Assembly (NCBI GenBank): GCA_964492875.1
Contig: CAZBLD010000007.1
Coordinates: forward strand, 21,949 to 85,948
Reading direction: 5' to 3'
From: an uncultured Planctomycetaceae bacterium
Lineage (GTDB): Bacteria; Planctomycetota; Phycisphaerae; Sedimentisphaerales; UBA12454
Length of the DNA stretch: 64,000 nt
A program made the translations under genes and the position numbers. Positions 1,664 to 62,259 of the stretch are shown one piece after another. Numbering within the stretch: the first letter of the stretch is position 1; the number at the start of each line of letters is the position of its first letter. A model generated the notes under the pieces. That model searched no databases, was not told the origin of the DNA, and saw only the letters and a program-made list of their open reading frames with translations.

Positions 1664-3100
1664 ATGACATTGGAGCAGTTATTGAAGCTGATGGATAGGC
1701 CCTTGCTTGAGCGGCCGCGCGTATGTGCCGACTCTCGCAAGCTTCGGCAGGGCGATATCTTTGTAGCGGTAAAAGGTACGCGTATGGACGGCCATGACTT
1801 TATCGGCCAGGCAGTTGTAACAGGCGCCAGATACGTTGTTTCGCAAAAACCGGTTACTGTTGCGTCAGCCGAAGTTATACAAGTTGACGATACAGCCGAA
1901 GCGCTTGGCCTGCTCTCTCAGGCATATTTTGACCAGCCCAACAGCAGGCTTGTTAATCTTGCTGTTACCGGCACAAACGGCAAGACGACGACGACTTATC
2001 TGGTTCGTTCGGTAATTGCCGATGCCGGCAAAAAATGCGGCCTGATAGGAACTGTGGTGATTGACTTTGGCAGCGGTGCAGACGACATCGAAGCTTCGAT
2101 GACGACTCCGGACGCGTTTGAGCTTGCGTCCATTTCAGACAAGATGGTACAAGCAGGCGACCAGTTCCTTGTTATGGAGGCCAGCAGTCATGCGATTGAG
2201 CAGAACCGTCTTGCGGGGATAAATTTCAAGGCCGCTGCTTTTACGAATCTTACAGGCGAACATCTGGATTATCACAAAACGATGGATGCGTATCTGGCCG
2301 CCAAGCTGAAGCTCTTTGAGAAGCTTTCACCTGATGCAACGGCAGTGATAAATATCGATGACCCTGTTTGGGAAAAAGTCGCTGCTGTAACAAAAGCTAA
2401 TAAGCTCTTTTACTCACTCGAAAGACAGGCAGACATAACGGCAGATATCATCTCGATGGATATTAGTGGTACGGTATTTGATTTGAATTTCAGAGGCCGG
2501 ATTATTCGGATAGAAACACCTCTTATAGGCAGACATAATATGAGCAATCATCTCGCTGCAGCGGGTCTGACGATTGCCTGTGGTTTTGACCTTAAGACAG
2601 TTGCAGAAGGTTTGAGTAAGCTCGGTAAGGTGCCCGGCAGACTTCAGAAAGTGCCTTTTTCAGGTGATTTTACGGTAATTGTGGATTATGCCCATACGGA
2701 CGATGCGTTAAAAAATGTCCTTTCAACCTTAAAACCTCTTTGTAAAAATCGCCTGACGCTGGTTTTCGGCTGTGGCGGCGACAGGGACAAAACCAAACGT
2801 CCCCGGATGGCACAGGTTGCCGAACAGTTTGCCGACAATATTTTTGTTACCAGCGATAATCCCAGAACGGAAAGACCCGCCGCCATAATAGAGGATATTC
2901 TCCAGGGTTTTTCAAACCCTTCTGCCGGTAACATAACTGTTCAGCCCGACAGGAAGCTGGCGATTGAGGCAGCGGTCAAAAATGCAAAGGCGGGCGATAT
3001 TGTTCTTATCGCTGGCAAGGGTCACGAAAATTATCAGATTATCGGCACGGAAAAGCTTCACTTCAGCGATATGGAGACCGCCGCAGAAATTTTGCGATGA
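1664..3100 (+). CDS. murE: UDP-N-acetylmuramoyl-L-alanyl-D-glutamate--2,6-diaminopimelate ligase
   Basis: Mur ligase P-loop GTNGKTTT, DYAHTDDAL and a C-terminal DNPR motif. Position upstream of murF-mraY. Confidence 0.93.
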   Translation: MTLEQLLKLMDRPLLERPRVCADSRKLRQGDIFVAVKGTRMDGHDFIGQAVVTGARYVVSQKPVTVASAEVIQVDDTAEALGLLSQAYFDQPNSRLVNLAVTGTNGKTTTTYLVRSVIADAGKKCGLIGTVVIDFGSGADDIEASMTTPDAFELASISDKMVQAGDQFLVMEASSHAIEQNRLAGINFKAAAFTNLTGEHLDYHKTMDAYLAAKLKLFEKLSPDATAVINIDDPVWEKVAAVTKANKLFYSLERQADITADIISMDISGTVFDLNFRGRIIRIETPLIGRHNMSNHLAAAGLTIACGFDLKTVAEGLSKLGKVPGRLQKVPFSGDFTVIVDYAHTDDALKNVLSTLKPLCKNRLTLVFGCGGDRDKTKRPRMAQVAEQFADNIFVTSDNPRTERPAAIIEDILQGFSNPSAGNITVQPDRKLAIEAAVKNAKAGDIVLIAGKGHENYQIIGTEKLHFSDMETAAEILR

Positions 3101-3219
3101 ATCCCGCACCTTCTAAATATTCAGTGTATCACGTATATCTTTTGAAGAGTCGTAAGGATGATAGCTTGTATATTGGATATACCAACGGGAAAATTGAACA
3201 GAAAGAAGGTGCGGGATGA
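3097..3219 (+). pseudogene. 40-codon mini-ORF, relic of the N-terminus of a GIY-YIG (COG2827-like) nuclease
   Basis: The translation is MNPAPSKYSVYHVYLLKSRKDDSLYIGYTNGKIEQKEGAG, with VYLL and LYIGYT matching the GIY and YIG motifs. Its ATG (3097) overlaps the murE TGA (3098-3100) and its TGA (3217-3219) overlaps the murF ATG (3216). Confidence 0.5.
3102..3216. repeat. Perfect 13-bp inverted repeat bracketing the mini-ORF
   Basis: TCCCGCACCTTCT (3102-3114) is the exact reverse complement of AGAAGGTGCGGGA (3204-3216). The right arm covers the murF ribosome-binding region. Confidence 0.85.
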
Positions 3220-4643
3220 AGCCTTTAAGCATAAGGAAACTCGCTGAAGTTATAAAAGCTCAAACCGTCTCCGGCAGCACAGAAATAGTAAGCAGTGTAA
3301 GTATAGACTCTCGTATAGTTCGCCAAGGTAGCGTATTTTTTGCGGTTAAGGGGGCAAATCACGACGGCCACGATTTTGTCAATCAGGCCTTTGAAAACGG
3401 CGCAGCCTGTGCGGTTGTGCAGAAGAAAATTGCTGTTACGACCGATTCGCCGCGGTGCGACCGCCTCGCAACAGGCAAGCTTGTCCTGCTTGTCAGCGAT
3501 ACGATAAAGGCTCTTGGCGAACTGGCAAAGTATGTGCGAAGTATCTCAGCCTGGAAGGTTATCGCAGTTACCGGCTCGGTGGGCAAGACTACGACAAAGG
3601 ATATGCTTCATCATGTTTTAAGCAGTAAGTTTAGATGTTTTGCCGCCCAGAAAAGCTACAATAACAATATCGGCGTGCCTTTGACGGTTTTCGATGCTCC
3701 GGATGATTGTGAATTTATTATAGCAGAGCTCGGCAGCAATCATCCCGGCGAGATTGAATATCTTTCCCGTATAATTGCTCCTGACATAGCTTTGATAACC
3801 ACGATATGCCCCGCACATCTGGAGGGTTTTGGCTCGATTGAAGGTATAATAAAGGAAAAGGTTTCCATCACGGCAGGTCTGAAGCAGGATGGAAAACTTT
3901 TTATCAACGGCGATAAAAAAGAGCTTGTTGATTATTGCAAAGAGAGTCGTTTGGATTTTACCACTTTCGGCACAGCGAAAACCTGCGACATACAGGTAAA
4001 GGATATTGAGTTTTTTGGCGATAAAAGTAAGTTTGTTATTGATGACGTTTTGGTGGAGCTTCCGCTTGCCGGCAGAGCTAACGTGGAGAATGCGGCAGCG
4101 GTCTGGGCGATGTGTAAATATCTTGGCATTCCAGCGGCTCAGCTTGCCCGCTTGATTGCTGACATAAAACCTGTCGGTATGAGGCTGGAGATTATCGAGT
4201 GCCGTCAGGCATCCCTTAGCGGACTTGGTTCGGTAACGGTTATTAACGACTGTTACAATGCAAATCCCGGCTCGATGGAAAATGCCCTTCAGACCCTTTC
4301 TCTGCTGGCGGAGCAGAAGAAGAAAAGACCTGTTTTTATTTTTGGCCGGATGGGTGAACTTGGCGCCCAAAGCGAAAGGCTGCACGCCGAGCTGGGCCAA
4401 AGAATTGCTCATTACAAAATCCCGCTTGTTCTGACGACGAAAGGCGATAGTGCCGTGGCTGCCCAAATGGCGGATAAAAGCGCTGATTTTCATATCTGTG
4501 TGAGGATTTTTGAAAATGTGCGCGAGCTTACCGCTAACCTGCACAAATTTATTGAACCTGACGATATAATATTAGTCAAGGCTTCTCGCAGTGAAAGCTT
4601 TGAAATAATTGTGGATAAACTGAAAGGACTTTTTACCAGATAG
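3216..4643 (+). CDS. murF: UDP-N-acetylmuramoyl-tripeptide--D-alanyl-D-alanine ligase
   Basis: Mur ligase P-loop GSVGKTTTKD, NDCYNANP motif, synteny murE-murF-mraY. Confidence 0.9.
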   Translation: MKPLSIRKLAEVIKAQTVSGSTEIVSSVSIDSRIVRQGSVFFAVKGANHDGHDFVNQAFENGAACAVVQKKIAVTTDSPRCDRLATGKLVLLVSDTIKALGELAKYVRSISAWKVIAVTGSVGKTTTKDMLHHVLSSKFRCFAAQKSYNNNIGVPLTVFDAPDDCEFIIAELGSNHPGEIEYLSRIIAPDIALITTICPAHLEGFGSIEGIIKEKVSITAGLKQDGKLFINGDKKELVDYCKESRLDFTTFGTAKTCDIQVKDIEFFGDKSKFVIDDVLVELPLAGRANVENAAAVWAMCKYLGIPAAQLARLIADIKPVGMRLEIIECRQASLSGLGSVTVINDCYNANPGSMENALQTLSLLAEQKKKRPVFIFGRMGELGAQSERLHAELGQRIAHYKIPLVLTTKGDSAVAAQMADKSADFHICVRIFENVRELTANLHKFIEPDDIILVKASRSESFEIIVDKLKGLFTR

Positions 4644-18062: not shown

Positions 18063-18184
18063 AGCCCCGCCTGCCCCGCACATATTTAATATTCTTATTC
18101 TACTCATTTTTATACTTATTGAATGAATAGGTGCGGGGTCGATTTTCTGCCCTTGCAGGGGCAAGGGCGGGGATAGGTGCGGGG
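18063..18184. repeat. Cluster of GC-rich CCCCGCAC / GGTGCGGGG motifs around an AT-rich core
   Basis: CCCCGCAC at 18074-18081. GGTGCGGGG at 18130-18138 and 18176-18184. Palindrome CCCTTGCAGGGGCAAGGG at about 18149-18166. Confidence 0.7.
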
Positions 18185-18242
18185 TTCCGGTCTGTCTTTT
18201 GCCATTTACCGCAACACCTCATAGTATCAATATATAAAATTC

Positions 18243-23709: not shown

Positions 23710-24082
23710 CTACCGATTTTCAGCACAAAAACTTGTAAAAACCTGTAAAAAGTCGTCAAAAAATTGTAATTTGTGTCAATTCGTGTTCATTCTCCGTAAG
23801 GAGTCCCAAGGACGTGGTTAATTAAAATCAATTTAATCTGCGTAATCTGTGATTAAAAGTACCCTCATTTTTAGCGTAATCCGCTGGGGGATGCCTGACG
23901 GCATTTTTAAAACTCTTGTCCGTTCGACTTGTCCGCTCGTAGCCTTGGCGGAGACGGAAGCCTTAGCGACCTGTCCTCCGTAGTCCATCTTGGTGGACGA
24001 AGGATGGAAGACGGATGCCCGCTTTTGACGAATTTTTTATCTCCTCAAATTACCTAAAAATCGTTTATCCCGCACCTACTTG

Positions 24083-24137
24083 CCCCGTTAGATGCGTTAG
24101 TTAGCTGCTTGGGGACACTTTAGCTATCTAACCGGGG
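24083..24137. repeat. CCCCG-TAGAT...ATCTA-CGGGG hairpin-family element
   Basis: CCCCGTTAGAT (24083-24093) pairs with ATCTAACCGGGG (24126-24137). Same family as 33069-33103 and 53039-53115. Confidence 0.6.
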
Positions 24138-24405
24138 TTTGCTATTCAATCGTTTACTTGGTGCGGGGTCAATCCCGCACCAAACTTATTATTCTTTACT
24201 CGGTGCGGGGTTCATAACTCCTTATTTTTCATTGCCGGTTTTTACCTGTTCTACTATTCACTGTTCACTATTCACTGTCCCCCTTTTTCTACTTCCCCTG
24301 ATTTGCCTTTCAGTCTTTTATTTCGTATATATTTATATGGAGTCGATTAAAGAAGGCCGAGGGGCCTATAAGTATTTAATTTGGGGGGGTTTAAGGAGTT
24401 TTTTT

Positions 24406-42114: not shown

Positions 42115-42156
42115 AAGTAAATTAAAAATCAAAAATAAAAAATCAAAATTGTGGAG

Positions 42157-42226
42157 TCCCGCACCTGTTTGCCCGGTTTTACCGATGGATTTTTTATCTG
42201 TTGCCACAGTGCAAACAGGTGCGGGA
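42157..42226. repeat. Long hairpin with 16-bp perfect stem carrying the CCCGCACC core
   Basis: TCCCGCACCTGTTTGC (42157-42172) is the exact reverse complement of GCAAACAGGTGCGGGA (42211-42226). On the minus strand it is followed by a T-rich tract. It lies between the ACP and dehydratase genes. Confidence 0.8.
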
Positions 42227-42241
42227 CGGTTTTATTTTGTT

Positions 42242-56155: not shown

Positions 56156-58150
56156 ATGGCGAAATTTAAGTTAGTAAGCAGTTTTGTGCCGAAGGGTGAC
56201 CAGCCGGAGGCGATAAAAACTCTTGCCGACGGACTAAAAGCCGGCAGGCAATACCAGGTACTCTACGGCGTTACCGGCAGCGGAAAAACTTTCACTATGG
56301 CTAACGCCATCGCTCAATACCAAAGACCTACCCTCGTAATCAGCCATAATAAGACATTAGCCGCTCAACTCTACGAGGAATTCAGAGAGCTTTTTCCAAA
56401 CAACGCTGTTGAGTACTTCGTCAGCTATTATGATTATTACCAGCCGGAGGCGTATATCCCGCAGCGAGATATATATATCGAAAAAGACGCTTCGCGGAAC
56501 GATGAATTAGACAGGCTCCGCCTTGCTGCTACAACAAGTCTTACGAGCAGGGATGATGTGATAATCGTTGCATCGGTTTCGTGCATTTTCGGATTAGGTT
56601 CGCCTGAGGATTACAAGGCAAGCGTTGTTGCCGTCAAAATCGGCGATACTGTTGAACGCAACGAACTTTTAGGCAGATTTGCTGATTTGCAGTATGCAAG
56701 AAACGACATTGATTTTCATCGCGGCACTTTCCGTGTTCGCGGCGATGTCGTGGAGTTGTGGCCGAGCTATGAATCTTTTGCCGTGAGATTAGAATTTTTC
56801 GGCGATGAAATAGAAAAAATAAATTATATTAACCCGACAAGCGGGGAAATCCTGGCGACCGAGCAGCAATTGTTTGTTTATCCGGCAGGTCATTATGTAA
56901 TGCCTGCCGACAGGATTGAGCTGGCAATTGGGAGTATAAAAATCGAACTCCAGCAGCAGCTTATGAAACTAAGGCAGGAAGGGAAACTGTTAGAAGCACA
57001 ACGATTACAAGCGAGGACGCTCTACGATATAGAAATGCTCAAGGAAGTCGGGTTTTGCAGCGGGATTGAAAATTATTCAAGGCATTTGAGCGGACTGCCG
57101 GCAGGGGCGAGGCCTTATACGCTGATTGATTATTTTCCTGACGATTTTCTTTTGTTTATTGACGAATCGCATGCAACAATACCACAGATTCGGGCGATGC
57201 CCGCAGGAGACAGGAGCAGAAAAGAGGTTCTGGTTGAACACGGATTCAGGCTGCCGAGCGCACTTGATAACAGGCCGCTAAGGTTCGATGAATTTCAGCA
57301 GGATTGGCGGAATGTAATATTTGTTTCGGCAACGCCGGCGGAATTTGAACTGAACCTGAGCAAAGGAGCGGTTGTAGAGCAGATTGTAAGGCCGACGGGG
57401 CTGCTCGACCCGGAGATTTTTGTCCATCCTGCTTCAAATCAGGTGCCTCATCTGCTCGATTTGATTGACAGGCACGTCCAGGTAAAGCAGCGGGTGCTTG
57501 TTATAACACTCACAAAGAGGCTTGCAGAGGATTTGTCTTCATATATAACGAAAAAAGGCTACCGCTGCAGATACCTGCACAGTGAAATCAAGACGCTTGA
57601 ACGTGTGGATATTCTGCGCGATTTGCGCAGGGGCGAATTTGACGTGCTGGTGGGCATAAACCTTCTCCGTGAGGGGCTTGATTTGCCTGAGGTTTCACTT
57701 GTTGCGATTCTCGATGCCGACAAGGAAGGCTTCCTGAGAAGCCAGACCTCACTGATTCAGACCATCGGCAGAACCGCAAGAAACGTTGACGCAAAGGTCT
57801 TTCTGTATGCCGATAAGGTTACCGAATCGATGCAAAAAGCAATTGACGAAACGAACCGGCGGCGTAAAATACAGATGCAGTACAATAAAGAGCATAACAT
57901 TACGCCTGAGACGATAAAAAAGCAGATTTATACAGGCCTGCAGGATAAATTAAAGGCAAGAGAGGTTGCCCGCCAGGCAATCAGCCTGAGCGATGACGAA
58001 TATGATGCTGCTGAAATCGCTGCACAAATTGAGAAAGAGATGTTGGAAGCTGCCCAGAGGCTTGATTTTGAACGAGCAGCTTATTTAAGAGACCAGCTAA
58101 AAGAATTAAAAGAAATGCCGCAGATTACACAATCTCAAAAAAGCAGATAA
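56156..58150 (+). CDS. uvrB: Excinuclease ABC subunit B
   Basis: [20 protein letters not shown] matches the canonical UvrB N-terminus. Walker [13 protein letters not shown] box, C-terminal UVR domain. The track's GTG at 56120 lies in repeat DNA. Confidence 0.95.
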
Positions 58151-61258: not shown

Positions 61259-61437
61259 ACAGCTCATCGGTTTGATAGGATAATCGCAGGTTACTTTTTT
61301 GTTGACGGGCAATGCTGCATAAAGTACAGTGGCTGGCAGATTTGACTAAATTTTGTCCGGTTTTTAAGGTTTTTACGAAGTTAACGGCCGATTACGGGTC
61401 GAAGCAAAAATAATAAAAGGATTGTAAGTCAGGGGAA

Positions 61438-62259
61438 ATGCAGGTTTTACGAAATTTTAAAACCTACTTTTTCAGGGGTTTGGCCGCACTTTTGCCGACT
61501 ATTTTGACGGTCTGGATTTTTGTCCAGCTATACCTGTTTATCCAACATAACATAAGTGCACATATTAACCGCGGAGTAGTCAGAATTCTGGTGTATGCTG
61601 TCCCACACTATCCATACATAAGTGAGGACAATTTGTCGGCTTATGTCAAAGAAAATTATCCTGCCGCGGCTGATAACCCACAGATGCTGGCTGAAAAGAT
61701 GAATGACCCTAATGTGAAAAGAACGGCCAGAATTGAAAAGGCTGAGAGTTTCTGGGTTCATGGCAAAGGACAAATAACAGGTTTTATAGCAGCATTTCTG
61801 ATAGTGATTTTTGTCGGGGCTTTTCTGGCCAGCGTTATCGGCAGAGCAGTATGGCGGATGTTTGAACATACGTTTATGAAGACGCCGCTGCTTCGAAGTA
61901 TTTATCCATATATTAAACAGGTAACGGATTTTTTTCTTGCCAGCAAAAAAATATCATTCAGCAAGGTAGTTGCAGTTGAGTTTCCCCGAAAGGGTATGTG
62001 GGCCGTAGGAATGGTTACCGGACCAGGACTGAAGAAACTGGCTCCGGAGGGAACGGAATTATTAACTGTTTTTGTTCCCACGGCACCATCGCCGATTACC
62101 GGCTTTGTGCTTATTGTTCCCAAATCGGAAGTTGTCGAACTGGATATTTCCATTGAAGAAATTTTGAGATTTATCATGAGCGGAGGCGTAATAGCTCCCG
62201 GGGATATTGTTAGCGGGAAATTGTCGGAAGATGAAAGCCATACATTGAAAAGCGAATGA
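61438..62259 (+). CDS. DUF502 family membrane protein
   Basis: Two TM segments plus the PTAPSPITGFVLIVPKSEVVELDISIEE block typical of DUF502. Confidence 0.65.
   Translation: MQVLRNFKTYFFRGLAALLPTILTVWIFVQLYLFIQHNISAHINRGVVRILVYAVPHYPYISEDNLSAYVKENYPAAADNPQMLAEKMNDPNVKRTARIEKAESFWVHGKGQITGFIAAFLIVIFVGAFLASVIGRAVWRMFEHTFMKTPLLRSIYPYIKQVTDFFLASKKISFSKVVAVEFPRKGMWAVGMVTGPGLKKLAPEGTELLTVFVPTAPSPITGFVLIVPKSEVVELDISIEEILRFIMSGGVIAPGDIVSGKLSEDESHTLKSE

What the first reader, a model, noticed from the sequence alone, without database searches (positions are those of the whole stretch)
3097..3219. GIY-YIG relic mini-ORF coupled by ATGA overlaps at both ends between murE and murF
The murE-murF spacer is not empty. 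A 40-codon ORF starts at the ATG at 3097, overlapping the murE TGA (ATGA). It ends with the TGA at 3217-3219, overlapping the murF ATG at 3216 (ATGA). Its peptide (…KYSVYHVYLLKSRKDDSLYIGYTNGKIEQ…) matches the first roughly 30 residues of small GIY-YIG/COG2827 nucleases, covering both the GIY and the YIG motif, then stops. The ORF is flanked by a perfect 13-bp inverted repeat (3102-3114 / 3204-3216) whose right arm covers the murF ribosome-binding region. It may be the stump of a GIY-YIG element that invaded the dcw operon and was retained because it relays translation from murE to murF and/or gates the murF RBS through the long-range stem.
Basis: partly seen in the sequence, partly recalled or inferred. 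Interest (0 to 1): 0.6.

Follow-up and report, generated by a model that had tools for sequence, protein, structure and literature searches.

The report
Decayed GIY-YIG mini-transposon between murE and murF
The 40-codon reading frame between the cell-wall genes murE and murF is a gutted copy of a tiny mobile DNA element that lands on gene start codons and rebuilds the stop and start signals it splits. It is selfish DNA rather than a purpose-built regulator, and I found no published description of this element family.

Summary
In detail: the ORF at 3097-3219, the ATGA overlaps at both ends and the perfect 13-bp inverted repeat are all present.

It is not a one-off relic. It is one of about 25 copies in this 2-Mb genome of a roughly 110-bp family with terminal inverted repeats (TIRs) and a miniature-transposon (MITE-like) layout: ATGAA|TCCCGCACCTTCT...AGAAGGTGCGGGA|TGAA. 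Fifty-eight distinct copies were examined. Almost all follow an A (ATGAA), and 50 of 58 have a right-end ATG that opens a long ORF.

Three of five congeners have an empty murE-murF site, one of them a plain ...GCGATGAAacc... overlap. The insertion therefore duplicated TGAA and regenerated murE's stop and murF's start.

Relatives carry full-length 306-337-bp elements with the same TIR and an intact 95-aa GIY-YIG gene. The window copy is their left ~92 nt plus right ~30 nt, and the catalytic core is deleted.

The idea that it is kept as a translation relay or RBS gate is not supported family-wide (bridging frame open in 6/18 junction copies versus 9/40 others). It cannot be excluded at this locus.

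The closest published system is Ssn/NTS (Chenal 2025), but its repeat motif is not met. This scan has met the same element class before on other DNA: notes from at least 77 genomes match a word search.

The parts
1664..3100 (+). murE (478 aa). Its stop TGA at 3098-3100 lies in the left copy of the duplicated target.
   Evidence: NCBIfam NF001126, 558 bits against a cut-off of 373; ORF list.
3098..3101 (+). Left copy of the 4-bp target-site duplication TGAA, preceded by A3097, so the target read ATGAA.
   Evidence: The empty site in congener G005 reads ...TTTTTGCGATGAAACC.... 56 of 58 family copies have A before TGAA.
3102..3114 (+). Left terminal inverted repeat TCCCGCACCTTCT (imperfect extension to 3123).
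   Evidence: The same 14-mer occurs 40 times in this genome and 0 times for the reversed control.
3097..3219 (+). 40-codon bridging ORF: the borrowed host ATG, the 5' remnant of the nuclease gene, the 3' tail of the element and the TGA of the right target copy.
3127..3186 (+). Remnant of the GIY-YIG N-terminus (YHVYLLKSRKDDSLYIGYTN), carrying both Tyr motifs. The Arg/His/Glu catalytic part is missing.
   Evidence: 18/20 identical to the full-length copy G101:C105. BLASTP to full-length P0003 gives E 4e-11.
3187..3188 (.). Internal-deletion breakpoint. About 185 nt of the full-length element are missing here.
   Evidence: MAFFT alignment with five full-length elements.
3199..3201 (+). CAG (Gln35) at the position of the nuclease gene's natural TAG stop (ATTGAATAGAAAG in full-length copies). 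This change lets the frame run on to the TGA at 3217.
   Evidence: Alignment and translations.
3204..3216 (+). Right terminal inverted repeat AGAAGGTGCGGGA. It contains the Shine-Dalgarno-like GAAGGTG (3205-3211), and its last base A3216 is the A of the murF ATG.
   Evidence: Most ends reading ...GAAGGTGCGGG-ATGAA open a long ORF.
3217..3220 (+). Right copy of the target-site duplication TGAA. It supplies the TG of the murF start and the stop of the bridging ORF.
3216..4643 (+). murF (475 aa).
   Evidence: NCBIfam TIGR01143, 384.9 bits against a cut-off of 288.6.

Best explanation
The 115-bp stretch 3102-3216 is a non-autonomous, internally deleted (MITE-like) copy of a roughly 300-bp mobile element. 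The only gene of the full-length element is a ~95-aa single-domain GIY-YIG nuclease bounded by terminal inverted repeats (TIRs).

Shown:
- The element inserted into the ancestral murE/murF ATGA overlap (...GCG-ATGAA-GCC...) and duplicated TGAA.
- Because the target holds both a stop (TGA) and a start (ATG), the left copy keeps murE's stop and gives the element's frame a start. The right copy, together with the TIR's terminal A, rebuilds murF's ATG behind an SD-like GAAGGTG carried in the TIR.
- The 40-codon ORF is the nuclease gene's first ~30 codons fused to the element's 3' tail. The catalytic core is deleted, so it cannot be a nuclease. It reads through to the TGA only because the natural TAG is CAG in this copy.

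Inferred:
- Copies are moved in trans by the GIY-YIG nuclease of full-length elements. By analogy with Ssn nucleases, the enzyme would recognise the hairpin that the TIRs form in single-stranded DNA and cut at its base.
- murF is translated either by termination-reinitiation through the bridging ORF, which would also melt the 14-bp stem over the SD, or directly from the TIR's SD.
- The element is tolerated because it is nearly neutral at such junctions, not because it was recruited.
For: Dispersed family:
- About 25 paired copies in the genome have ATGAA/TGAA flanks, and their interior orientation is fixed relative to TGAA.
- TIR 14-mer counts are 40, 40, 28, 12, 7 and 4 in the six congeners, with 0 for the reversed control.

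Insertion polymorphism:
- G003, G004 and G005, and all 24 genomes searched from other genera, lack the element at murE-murF. G005 reads ...GCGATGAAACC....
- On the flank-identity matrix the occupied genomes (G000+G002, and G001) lie in two different clades, each next to empty relatives.

Full-length partners with the same TIR ATCCCGCACCTTCT:
- They are G101:C105, G101:C80 and G077:C14 (306-337 bp), a copy in congener G004, and a metagenome copy at the coaX start.
- Of the three partners scored against Pfam (both G101 copies and G004), each reaches 57-63 bits on GIY-YIG against a cut-off of 22.6.
- The alignment shows the window copy is the left ~92 nt plus the right ~30 nt of these elements.
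- A full-length copy in G004 is orthologous to a decayed copy in G000, which shows decay in place.

Target preference:
- 56/58 copies are preceded by A, and in 50/58 the right-end ATG opens an ORF of at least 60 codons.
- 18/58 copies sit at stop/start junctions (ORFs of at least 60 codons on both sides). Only 1.1% of all ATGAA sites do so at an 80-codon threshold.

The TIR stem is predicted to form in RNA (-47 kcal/mol, z -4.06) and in single-stranded DNA on both strands (z -4.1 and -4.4).
Against: - No full-length family-A copy was found in this genome, which is 87.6% complete. The resident full-length GIY-YIG elements carry other TIRs, so this copy may be immobile now.
- No experiment links a GIY-YIG nuclease to transposition, and hydrolytic nucleases do not join DNA, so the integration chemistry is unknown.
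- The start-codon bias could come from selection against disruptive insertions rather than from targeting.
- The G000 and G002 copies are 113/115 identical while the flanks are about 87% identical. This needs recent or repeated insertion, transfer or constraint, and I could not tell which.
- The G001 copy has its interior inverted and a 3-bp flank repeat, which breaks the orientation rule.
Confidence: 0.82

Rival explanations
1. Exapted relay or gate. The insertion is retained at murE-murF because its mini-ORF passes ribosomes from murE to murF, and/or because the long-range stem regulates the murF ribosome-binding site.
For: - The bridging frame is open in all three occupied congeners. This includes G001, where the interior is inverted and a different 36-codon frame is still open. 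Shuffles are open 12% of the time, times 1/3 for being in frame, giving about 4% by chance.
- A stable stem buries GAAGGUG.
- The empty sites show no obvious SD for murF, so coupling was probably ancestral.
Against: - The same architecture occurs in every copy at unrelated genes.
- The frame is open in only 6/18 junction copies against 9/40 others (p=0.52).
- Both G000/G002 substitutions change the amino acid.
- In G002 murE now stops 22 nt upstream of the mini-ORF ATG.
- The element is absent from 3 of 5 congeners and from all other genera searched.
- There is no terminator-like site and no credible Rfam match.
Confidence: 0.2
2. The repeats are mobilised by some other enzyme, such as a Y1/RAYT-type or an unrecognised transposase. 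The GIY-YIG gene would then be only a passenger or an addiction-type cargo of the full-length form.
For: - GIY-YIG enzymes are not known transposases.
- The genome encodes one Y1_Tnp-like protein (C16:6838-7341, 26.2 bits).
- This genome holds many copies without a matching full-length element.
Against: - The Y1 gene is flanked by its own, different REP hairpins (CCCCCACTnAAAGTGGGGG), not by CCCGCACCT.
- No IS-sized unit is bounded by the family TIRs.
- The only gene found between these TIRs in five independent full-length copies is the GIY-YIG gene.
Confidence: 0.15
3. Homing-type spread. The nuclease cuts unoccupied ATGAA sites and the element is copied in by repair or recombination, as with free-standing homing endonuclease genes, rather than by cut-and-paste or copy-out transposition.
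For: - GIY-YIG is a classical homing-endonuclease fold.
- The element copy in G000 and G002 is more similar (98%) than its flanks (87%).
- The same site is hit in two clades of the genus.
Against: - The target sites share only ATGAA, and the flanks of the copies are unrelated, so there is no homology to template the repair.
- A consistent 4-bp duplication points to staggered-cut insertion.
- The protein has no DNA-binding domain beyond the roughly 95-aa core.
Confidence: 0.1

Closest known systems
Ssn nucleases with NTS/SRM hairpin repeats (Chenal et al. 2025, Nat Commun, PMC11893778)
   Same: - A small (~94-aa) single-domain GIY-YIG protein whose gene is flanked by inverted-repeat DNA that is also dispersed through the genome in many copies.
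- A TCCCGC...GCGGGA-type core in the repeat.
- The authors note that NTS-ssnA-NTS looks like an insertion sequence, and they show hairpin-specific ssDNA cleavage.
   Different: - There, each flank is its own short hairpin (loop of 0-5 nt). Here the two arms pair across the whole element.
- The published SRM search pattern finds nothing in this element or around its full-length partners, and finds only chance numbers in this genome (7, against 6-20 in shuffles).
- That paper reports no target duplication, start-codon targeting or internally deleted derivatives, and proposes a role in transformation control.
- Clade membership (cd10448) could not be tested here. The nearest solved structures are UPF0213 proteins.
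Bacterial MITEs and their parent insertion sequences (e.g. Neisseria Correia elements, ERIC, Rickettsia RPEs; from my own knowledge and as named in earlier scan notes)
   Same: - Roughly 100-bp non-autonomous elements with TIRs and a short target duplication.
- Many dispersed copies, derived by internal deletion from a gene-carrying parent.
- They can supply expression signals to neighbouring genes or sit inside reading frames.
   Different: - The parent is only about 300 bp and encodes a GIY-YIG nuclease instead of a DDE, serine or tyrosine transposase.
- The target ATGAA is asymmetric and coincides with start codons and ATGA overlaps.
- The element takes its own start and stop from the duplicated target.
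REP/RAYT (REPIN) systems and IS200/IS605
   Same: Hairpin-forming dispersed repeats associated with one small nuclease-type gene, with action on single-stranded DNA hairpins proposed.
   Different: - No Y1 (HUH) enzyme is associated. The one Y1-like gene in this genome has different REPs.
- IS200/IS605 elements make no target duplication and have subterminal hairpins rather than TIRs (my own knowledge).
ATGA stop/start overlaps and termination-reinitiation coupling (Huber et al. 2019, PMC6728339; title and abstract seen)
   Same: The ancestral murE/murF junction is such an overlap, and the element recreates one at each of its ends.
   Different: Here the overlaps are by-products of a transposon's target duplication, not evolved operon features.

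Membership tests
MITE-type non-autonomous transposable element | Terminal inverted repeats | tested here: met
   Perfect 13 bp, extending to 23 nt at 83%. The same TIR is present in all family copies.
MITE-type non-autonomous transposable element | Target-site duplication, shown by comparing filled and empty sites | tested here: met
   TGAA lies on both sides. The empty allele in G005 reads ...GCGATGAAACC..., and G003 and G004 are also empty.
MITE-type non-autonomous transposable element | Many dispersed copies, small size and no functional transposase gene | tested here: met
   About 25 copies of 50-245 bp in 2.03 Mb. The ORF lacks the catalytic core.
MITE-type non-autonomous transposable element | A related gene-carrying element with the same ends | tested here: met
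   L092, L110, L093, L094 and L050 carry the ATCCCGCACCTTCT-type TIR plus an intact GIY-YIG gene. None was found in this genome itself.
MITE-type non-autonomous transposable element | Mobilisation in trans demonstrated | not testable with these tools
   Only indirect evidence: the site is occupied in two clades of the genus with empty relatives beside each, and copy number varies 4-40 among congeners.
Ssn nuclease / SRM repeat system (Chenal 2025) | Single-domain GIY-YIG protein of about 90-100 aa | tested here: not met
   The window ORF keeps only about 30 N-terminal residues (16.6 bits against a cut-off of 22.6). The full-length partners in relatives do meet this feature.
Ssn nuclease / SRM repeat system (Chenal 2025) | Flanking repeats match the SRM motif HGTCWYN(0-2)YYVSBRHN(0-5)WNVSBRGN(0-2)RNCYNB | tested here: not met
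   A regex scan gave 0 matches in window 3060-3260 and none at the elements in L092, L110, L093, L094 or L050. The genome total of 7 equals the shuffled controls (6-20). The positive control NTS matched.
Ssn nuclease / SRM repeat system (Chenal 2025) | Protein belongs to the CDD clade cd10448 | not testable with these tools
   No CDD library and no SsnA sequence were on hand. PDB neighbours are UPF0213 proteins BH0048 and EF2693 (E 3e-6 and 4e-4). No NCBIfam model passes its cut-off.
Ssn nuclease / SRM repeat system (Chenal 2025) | Site-specific cleavage of hairpin ssDNA | not testable with these tools
   Only the predicted ssDNA hairpin on both strands is available.
REP/RAYT (REPIN) | Repeats flank, and are associated with, a Y1 (HUH) transposase gene | tested here: not met
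   The single Y1_Tnp-like gene (C16:6838-7341) is flanked by different hairpins, CCCCCACTnAAAGTGGGGG.
GIY-YIG homing endonuclease (free-standing or intron-encoded) | Nuclease domain joined to a DNA-binding domain, with a long specific target and homology-templated copying | tested here: not met
   The full-length partners scored (91-96 aa) match only the GIY-YIG domain and overlapping related models (T5orf172, MUG113), with no separate DNA-binding domain. The insertion sites share only ATGAA.
Conserved translational-coupling or leader ORF | ORF conserved and under purifying selection across relatives | tested here: inconclusive
   The ORF is open in all 3 occupied congeners. It is absent from the other relatives searched, both substitutions between G000 and G002 are non-synonymous, and there is no family-wide enrichment.

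The most novel reading that the evidence does not exclude
The family represents an undescribed class of autonomous bacterial transposable elements of only about 300 bp. Its sole gene would be a single-domain GIY-YIG (Ssn-like) nuclease acting as the mobilising enzyme. The elements would specifically target ATGAA start codons and ATGA stop/start overlaps, and would be built to be translationally transparent: they borrow the host start and stop and hand back an SD plus ATG. They have spread across Phycisphaerae and into Omnitrophota. The murE-murF copy would be one of their trans-mobilised deletion derivatives, inserted at this junction at least twice independently within one genus.
Probability: 0.5. 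Interest if true: 0.85.

Novelty: new variant of a known kind. Interest (0 to 1): 0.62.

Why it matters
If the GIY-YIG nuclease really moves these elements, they would be among the smallest self-contained mobile elements in bacteria, and the first bacterial transposon type driven by this nuclease fold. That would give a biological rationale (selfish spread) for the IS-like architecture that the Ssn paper noted but did not explain.

Their design shows how selfish DNA can sit inside essential, translationally coupled operons such as the cell-wall (dcw) cluster without polar damage. The element inserts on the start codon, duplicates a stop-plus-start tetranucleotide, and carries a ribosome-binding site in its terminal repeat.

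There is also a practical consequence. Such copies create spurious small ORFs and 'regulatory hairpins' in front of many genes in uncultured Planctomycetota. They can mislead annotation, and they can mislead searches for regulatory RNAs or leader peptides.

Tried and rejected
- A pattern search for a full-length element with the exact TIRs spaced 235-265 nt apart, in 301 genomes of the order, found only one decayed composite copy, in G018. The full-length partners were found instead through a protein search seeded with a longer relic.
- All 41 loci from the species-genome collection that hold the 25-mer element end contained only miniature copies.
- My first DNA alignment of full-length loci used wrong coordinates and was uninformative. 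It was redone.
- NCBIfam gave no family above cut-off for the nucleases.
- Rfam gave only a meaningless 22-bit hairpin match to a plant miRNA precursor. No terminator-like site was found, and promoter-like matches were at chance level.
- An IS-sized parent bounded by the family TIRs in this genome: none found.
- RAYT as the mobiliser: rejected, because it has its own REPs.
- Chance resemblance to GIY-YIG: rejected by the alignment to full-length copies.
- Six literature searches found no description of start-codon-targeting GIY-YIG elements in the held library. This does not prove that none exists.
Full report
**1. Observation**

The sequence is as described.
- murE (1664-3100) ends with TGA at 3098-3100.
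- An ATG at 3097 overlaps that stop and opens a 40-codon frame, MNPAPSKYSVYHVYLLKSRKDDSLYIGYTNGKIEQKEGAG*.
- The frame's TGA (3217-3219) overlaps the murF ATG (3216).
- A perfect 13-bp inverted repeat (3102-3114 / 3204-3216) brackets the frame and extends imperfectly to 23 nt.

murE, murF and mraY pass their NCBIfam cut-offs. On its own, the peptide reaches only 16.6 bits on Pfam GIY-YIG against a cut-off of 22.6.

**2. It is a repeat family, not a unique relic**

A DNA search of the window's own assembly (2.03 Mb, 20 contigs, 87.6% complete) found about 20 further near-full-length matches and many matches to the ends alone.
- The core CCCGCACCT occurs 159 times against about 15 expected, and 8 times in the window against 0.28 expected.
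- Pairing the ends gives about 25 'family A' copies of mostly 105-115 bp.
- These copies have the layout (A)TGAA|TCCCGCACCTTCT-AAATATTCA...AGAAGGTGCGGGA|TGAA.
- The flanks are a direct repeat, not an inverted one. The interior has a fixed orientation relative to that asymmetric repeat in nearly all copies.
- Related subfamilies have co-varying arms (CCCCGC.../...GCGGGG with TTGA flanks, and ...CCTATTTGC... types). They also occur in the genome and in the window.

**3. It is an insertion, and the ATGA overlaps are its footprint**

I fetched the murE-murF junction from 30 relatives.
- None of the 24 genomes from other genera for which a junction could be read carries this element. Most have murE and murF overlapping or a few bases apart.
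- Within the genus, G005 reads ...TTTTTGCGATGAAACC..., a plain ATGA overlap. G004 has TAATG and G003 has GTGA. All three are empty.
- G002 carries the same element in the same orientation.
- G001 carries it with the interior inverted and TGA rather than TGAA on the left.

The filled site therefore equals the empty site plus the element plus a second TGAA. The duplicated tetranucleotide contains a stop. Preceded by A, from the host on the left and from the TIR's last base on the right, it also makes a start. Every insertion at such a site automatically yields 'ATGA overlaps at both ends'.

On a flank-identity matrix (767 shared columns) the genomes group as (G000,G002)+G003 and (G001,G005)+G004. 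The occupied genomes therefore lie in two clades, each next to empty relatives. Two independent insertions are more parsimonious than one gain with three precise losses. I could not exclude hairpin-stimulated precise excision.

The G000 and G002 copies are 113/115 identical, while their flanks are about 87% identical. This points to recent or repeated insertion, transfer or constraint, and it is not resolved.

**4. What it derives from**

The genome holds six full-length small GIY-YIG genes.
- Two of them (C3 ~61.3-61.7 kb, C5 ~57.0-57.4 kb) are bounded by a different TIR (TCCCGTTAGACCT). They sit between ATGAA repeats with the same stop/start arrangement, one of them directly in front of a trpB-like gene.

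Partners with exactly the family-A TIR were found in the following steps.
- I used a longer relic (C16) as a protein query restricted to its N-terminal 41 residues.
- That search returned P0003, a 125-aa frame on a metagenome contig. It starts MNPAP... in the left TIR, ends ...KGAG* in the right TIR, and abuts the coaX start codon.
- Searching P0003 in the family's genomes found 306-337-bp elements in G101 (two copies) and G077, and a slightly longer copy in congener G004, all with the ATCCCGCACCTTCT-type TIR.
- The three of these proteins that I scored (both G101 copies and G004) reach 57-63 bits on Pfam GIY-YIG.

The alignment shows that the window element is the left ~92 nt (about 90% identical to G101:C105 by my count) joined to the right ~30 nt.
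- About 185 nt that encode the catalytic Arg/His/Glu region are missing.
- The natural stop TAG (ATTGAATAGAAAG) is CAG here (3199-3201), which is why the frame runs on to the TGA of the target copy.

At another locus, a full-length copy in G004 is orthologous to a decayed copy carrying a nested insertion in G000 (C10:29074-29304). Copies therefore also decay in place.

**5. Target preference**

I examined 58 distinct family-A copies, drawn from this genome plus loci from related MAGs.
- 56 are preceded by A.
- In 50, the right-end ATG opens an ORF of at least 60 codons.
- 18 sit at true stop/start junctions, with ORFs of at least 60 codons on both sides.

As background, 27% of the 5,513 ATGAA sites in the genome open an ORF of at least 80 codons, and 1.1% are junctions at that threshold. 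The data do not say whether this bias reflects targeting or survival of harmless insertions.

Each insertion regenerates ATGAA at both ends. This fits the tandem and nested pile-ups seen at C12, C13, C5 and C16.

**6.

The TIR stem is predicted to form in RNA (14 bp, -47 kcal/mol, z -4.06), and it buries GAAGGUG. It forms equally in single-stranded DNA on both strands, and it is a property of every copy.

Evidence against a general relay role:
- The bridging frame is open in 6/18 junction copies and 9/40 others (Fisher p=0.52). A translatable bridge is therefore not generally required.
- Both substitutions between the G000 and G002 copies change the amino acid (H12L, G31E).
- In G002 a 23-nt insertion makes murE stop 22 nt before the mini-ORF start.

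Evidence for a local role:
- All three occupied murE-murF sites have an open bridge.
- This includes G001's inverted copy, where an unrelated 36-codon frame is open. That has about a 4% chance under shuffling. It is one case and only suggestive.

No terminator-like site and no credible Rfam match were found, and promoter-like matches were at chance level.

**7. Who moves it**

- No IS-sized unit is bounded by these TIRs.
- The only Y1/RAYT-like gene has its own, different REP hairpins.
- The only gene found between these TIRs is the GIY-YIG gene.

By analogy with Ssn nucleases, which bind a hairpin in ssDNA and cut next to it, I infer that the full-length element's nuclease recognises the TIR hairpin. 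How the DNA is rejoined is unknown. This genome lacks a matching full-length copy, so the murE-murF copy may now be stranded.

**8. Comparison with what is known**

Closest published system: Ssn/NTS (Chenal 2025). It shares a small single-domain GIY-YIG gene flanked by dispersed inverted repeats with a TCCCGC/GCGGGA core, and the authors remark on its IS-like architecture. Differences:
- Their SRM search pattern does not match this element or its full-length partners, and is at chance level in this genome.
- Their repeats are self-contained short hairpins on each side of the gene.
- They report no target duplication, no start-codon targeting and no deletion derivatives.
- CDD clade membership could not be tested here. 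The nearest solved structures are UPF0213 proteins.

In mechanics of spread and decay the family behaves like a MITE/IS pair, and it meets every sequence-level criterion I could test.

Six full-text searches found no description of such elements.

The scan itself has met this class many times. A word search returned 90 notes from at least 77 genomes, including look-alike copies at carB-carA, coaX, pheS-pheT and others. I reached the MITE/full-length reading, before opening those notes. The lead to the Chenal paper came from them.

**9. Organism and spread**

The exact 25-mer element end occurs in MAGs labelled Phycisphaerae or Sedimentisphaerales (Planctomycetota), one of which carries the orthologous murE-murF copy. 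It also occurs in three Omnitrophota MAGs from different studies. The window's genome is therefore most likely a Sedimentisphaerales-type planctomycete. The element has either crossed phyla or some contigs are mis-binned. TIR counts vary from 4 to 40 among six congeners.

**10. Verdict**

- 'Stump of an invading GIY-YIG element' is supported.
- 'Retained as relay or gate' is not supported as a general feature and is untested locally.
- The copy itself is an ordinary member of its family. The family is an apparently undescribed variant of MITE/IS biology with an unusual nuclease and a striking start-codon design.

Noticed in passing
window 18081-18139, 18168-18185, 24067-24185, 42156-42228: Further hairpin-ended repeats of the wider CCCGCACCT superfamily (arms such as GTCCCGCACCTGTTTGC...GCAAACAGGTGCGGGAC). 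They are about 60-105 bp with variable interiors and no ATGAA flanks. In the genome this 'family B' has a near-constant length of about 103 bp but very different interiors, which I cannot explain.
   Followed up: partly
G000:C16:6838-7341 (outside the window): A Y1_Tnp/RAYT-like gene flanked by tandem copies of its own REP hairpin, CCCCCACTnAAAGTGGGGG. This is a separate REP/RAYT-type system in the same genome, lying next to a run of N.
   Followed up: partly
G000:C3:~61300-61700(-), C5:~57000-57400(+), C14:7229-7498(-), C5:102979-103188(+): Other full-length mini GIY-YIG elements. Two have TIR TCCCGTTAGACCT at ATGAA sites: one lies in front of a trpB-like gene and one is in a tandem array. 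One has a 16-bp TIR CCCTCACACCAATGGT with TAGA direct repeats. One sits behind a tRNA gene with a 15-bp duplication of the tRNA 3' end.
   Followed up: partly
L042 (G027) murE-murF spacer; L094 (G004) near position 513: True Neisseria-type dRS3/NTS-like hairpins occur in relatives: ATTCCCGCGTAAGCGGGAAT, and TGTCATTCCCGCGAATGCGGGAATCCAT, which matches the published SRM pattern. One of them lies in the murE-murF spacer of a different family of the same order.
   Followed up: no
L052, L059, L062, L089 (Omnitrophota MAGs): The identical 25-mer element end, with the same start-codon placement, occurs in three Candidatus Omnitrophota MAGs as well as in Phycisphaerae MAGs. This means either horizontal spread between phyla or binning errors.
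   Followed up: no
G000:C10:29074-29304 versus L094 (G004:C1:~227.5 kb): The same gene start carries a full-length GIY-YIG element in G004. In G000 it carries a decayed copy with a nested family-B insertion. This shows in-place decay and nesting.
   Followed up: yes
G000:C4:23254, 47470, 48460, 48676; C14:37453; C15:42919; C17:321: Copies of the TTGA-flanked subfamily (CCCCGCACC...GGTGCGGGG) whose outward reading frame stays open for 329-1155 codons.
   Followed up: no
L020 (G002) murE 3' end: A 23-nt insertion (CCTGTGGTGAGCTTGCCGAACCA) just upstream of the element truncates murE by a few codons and uncouples its stop from the mini-ORF start.
   Followed up: partly
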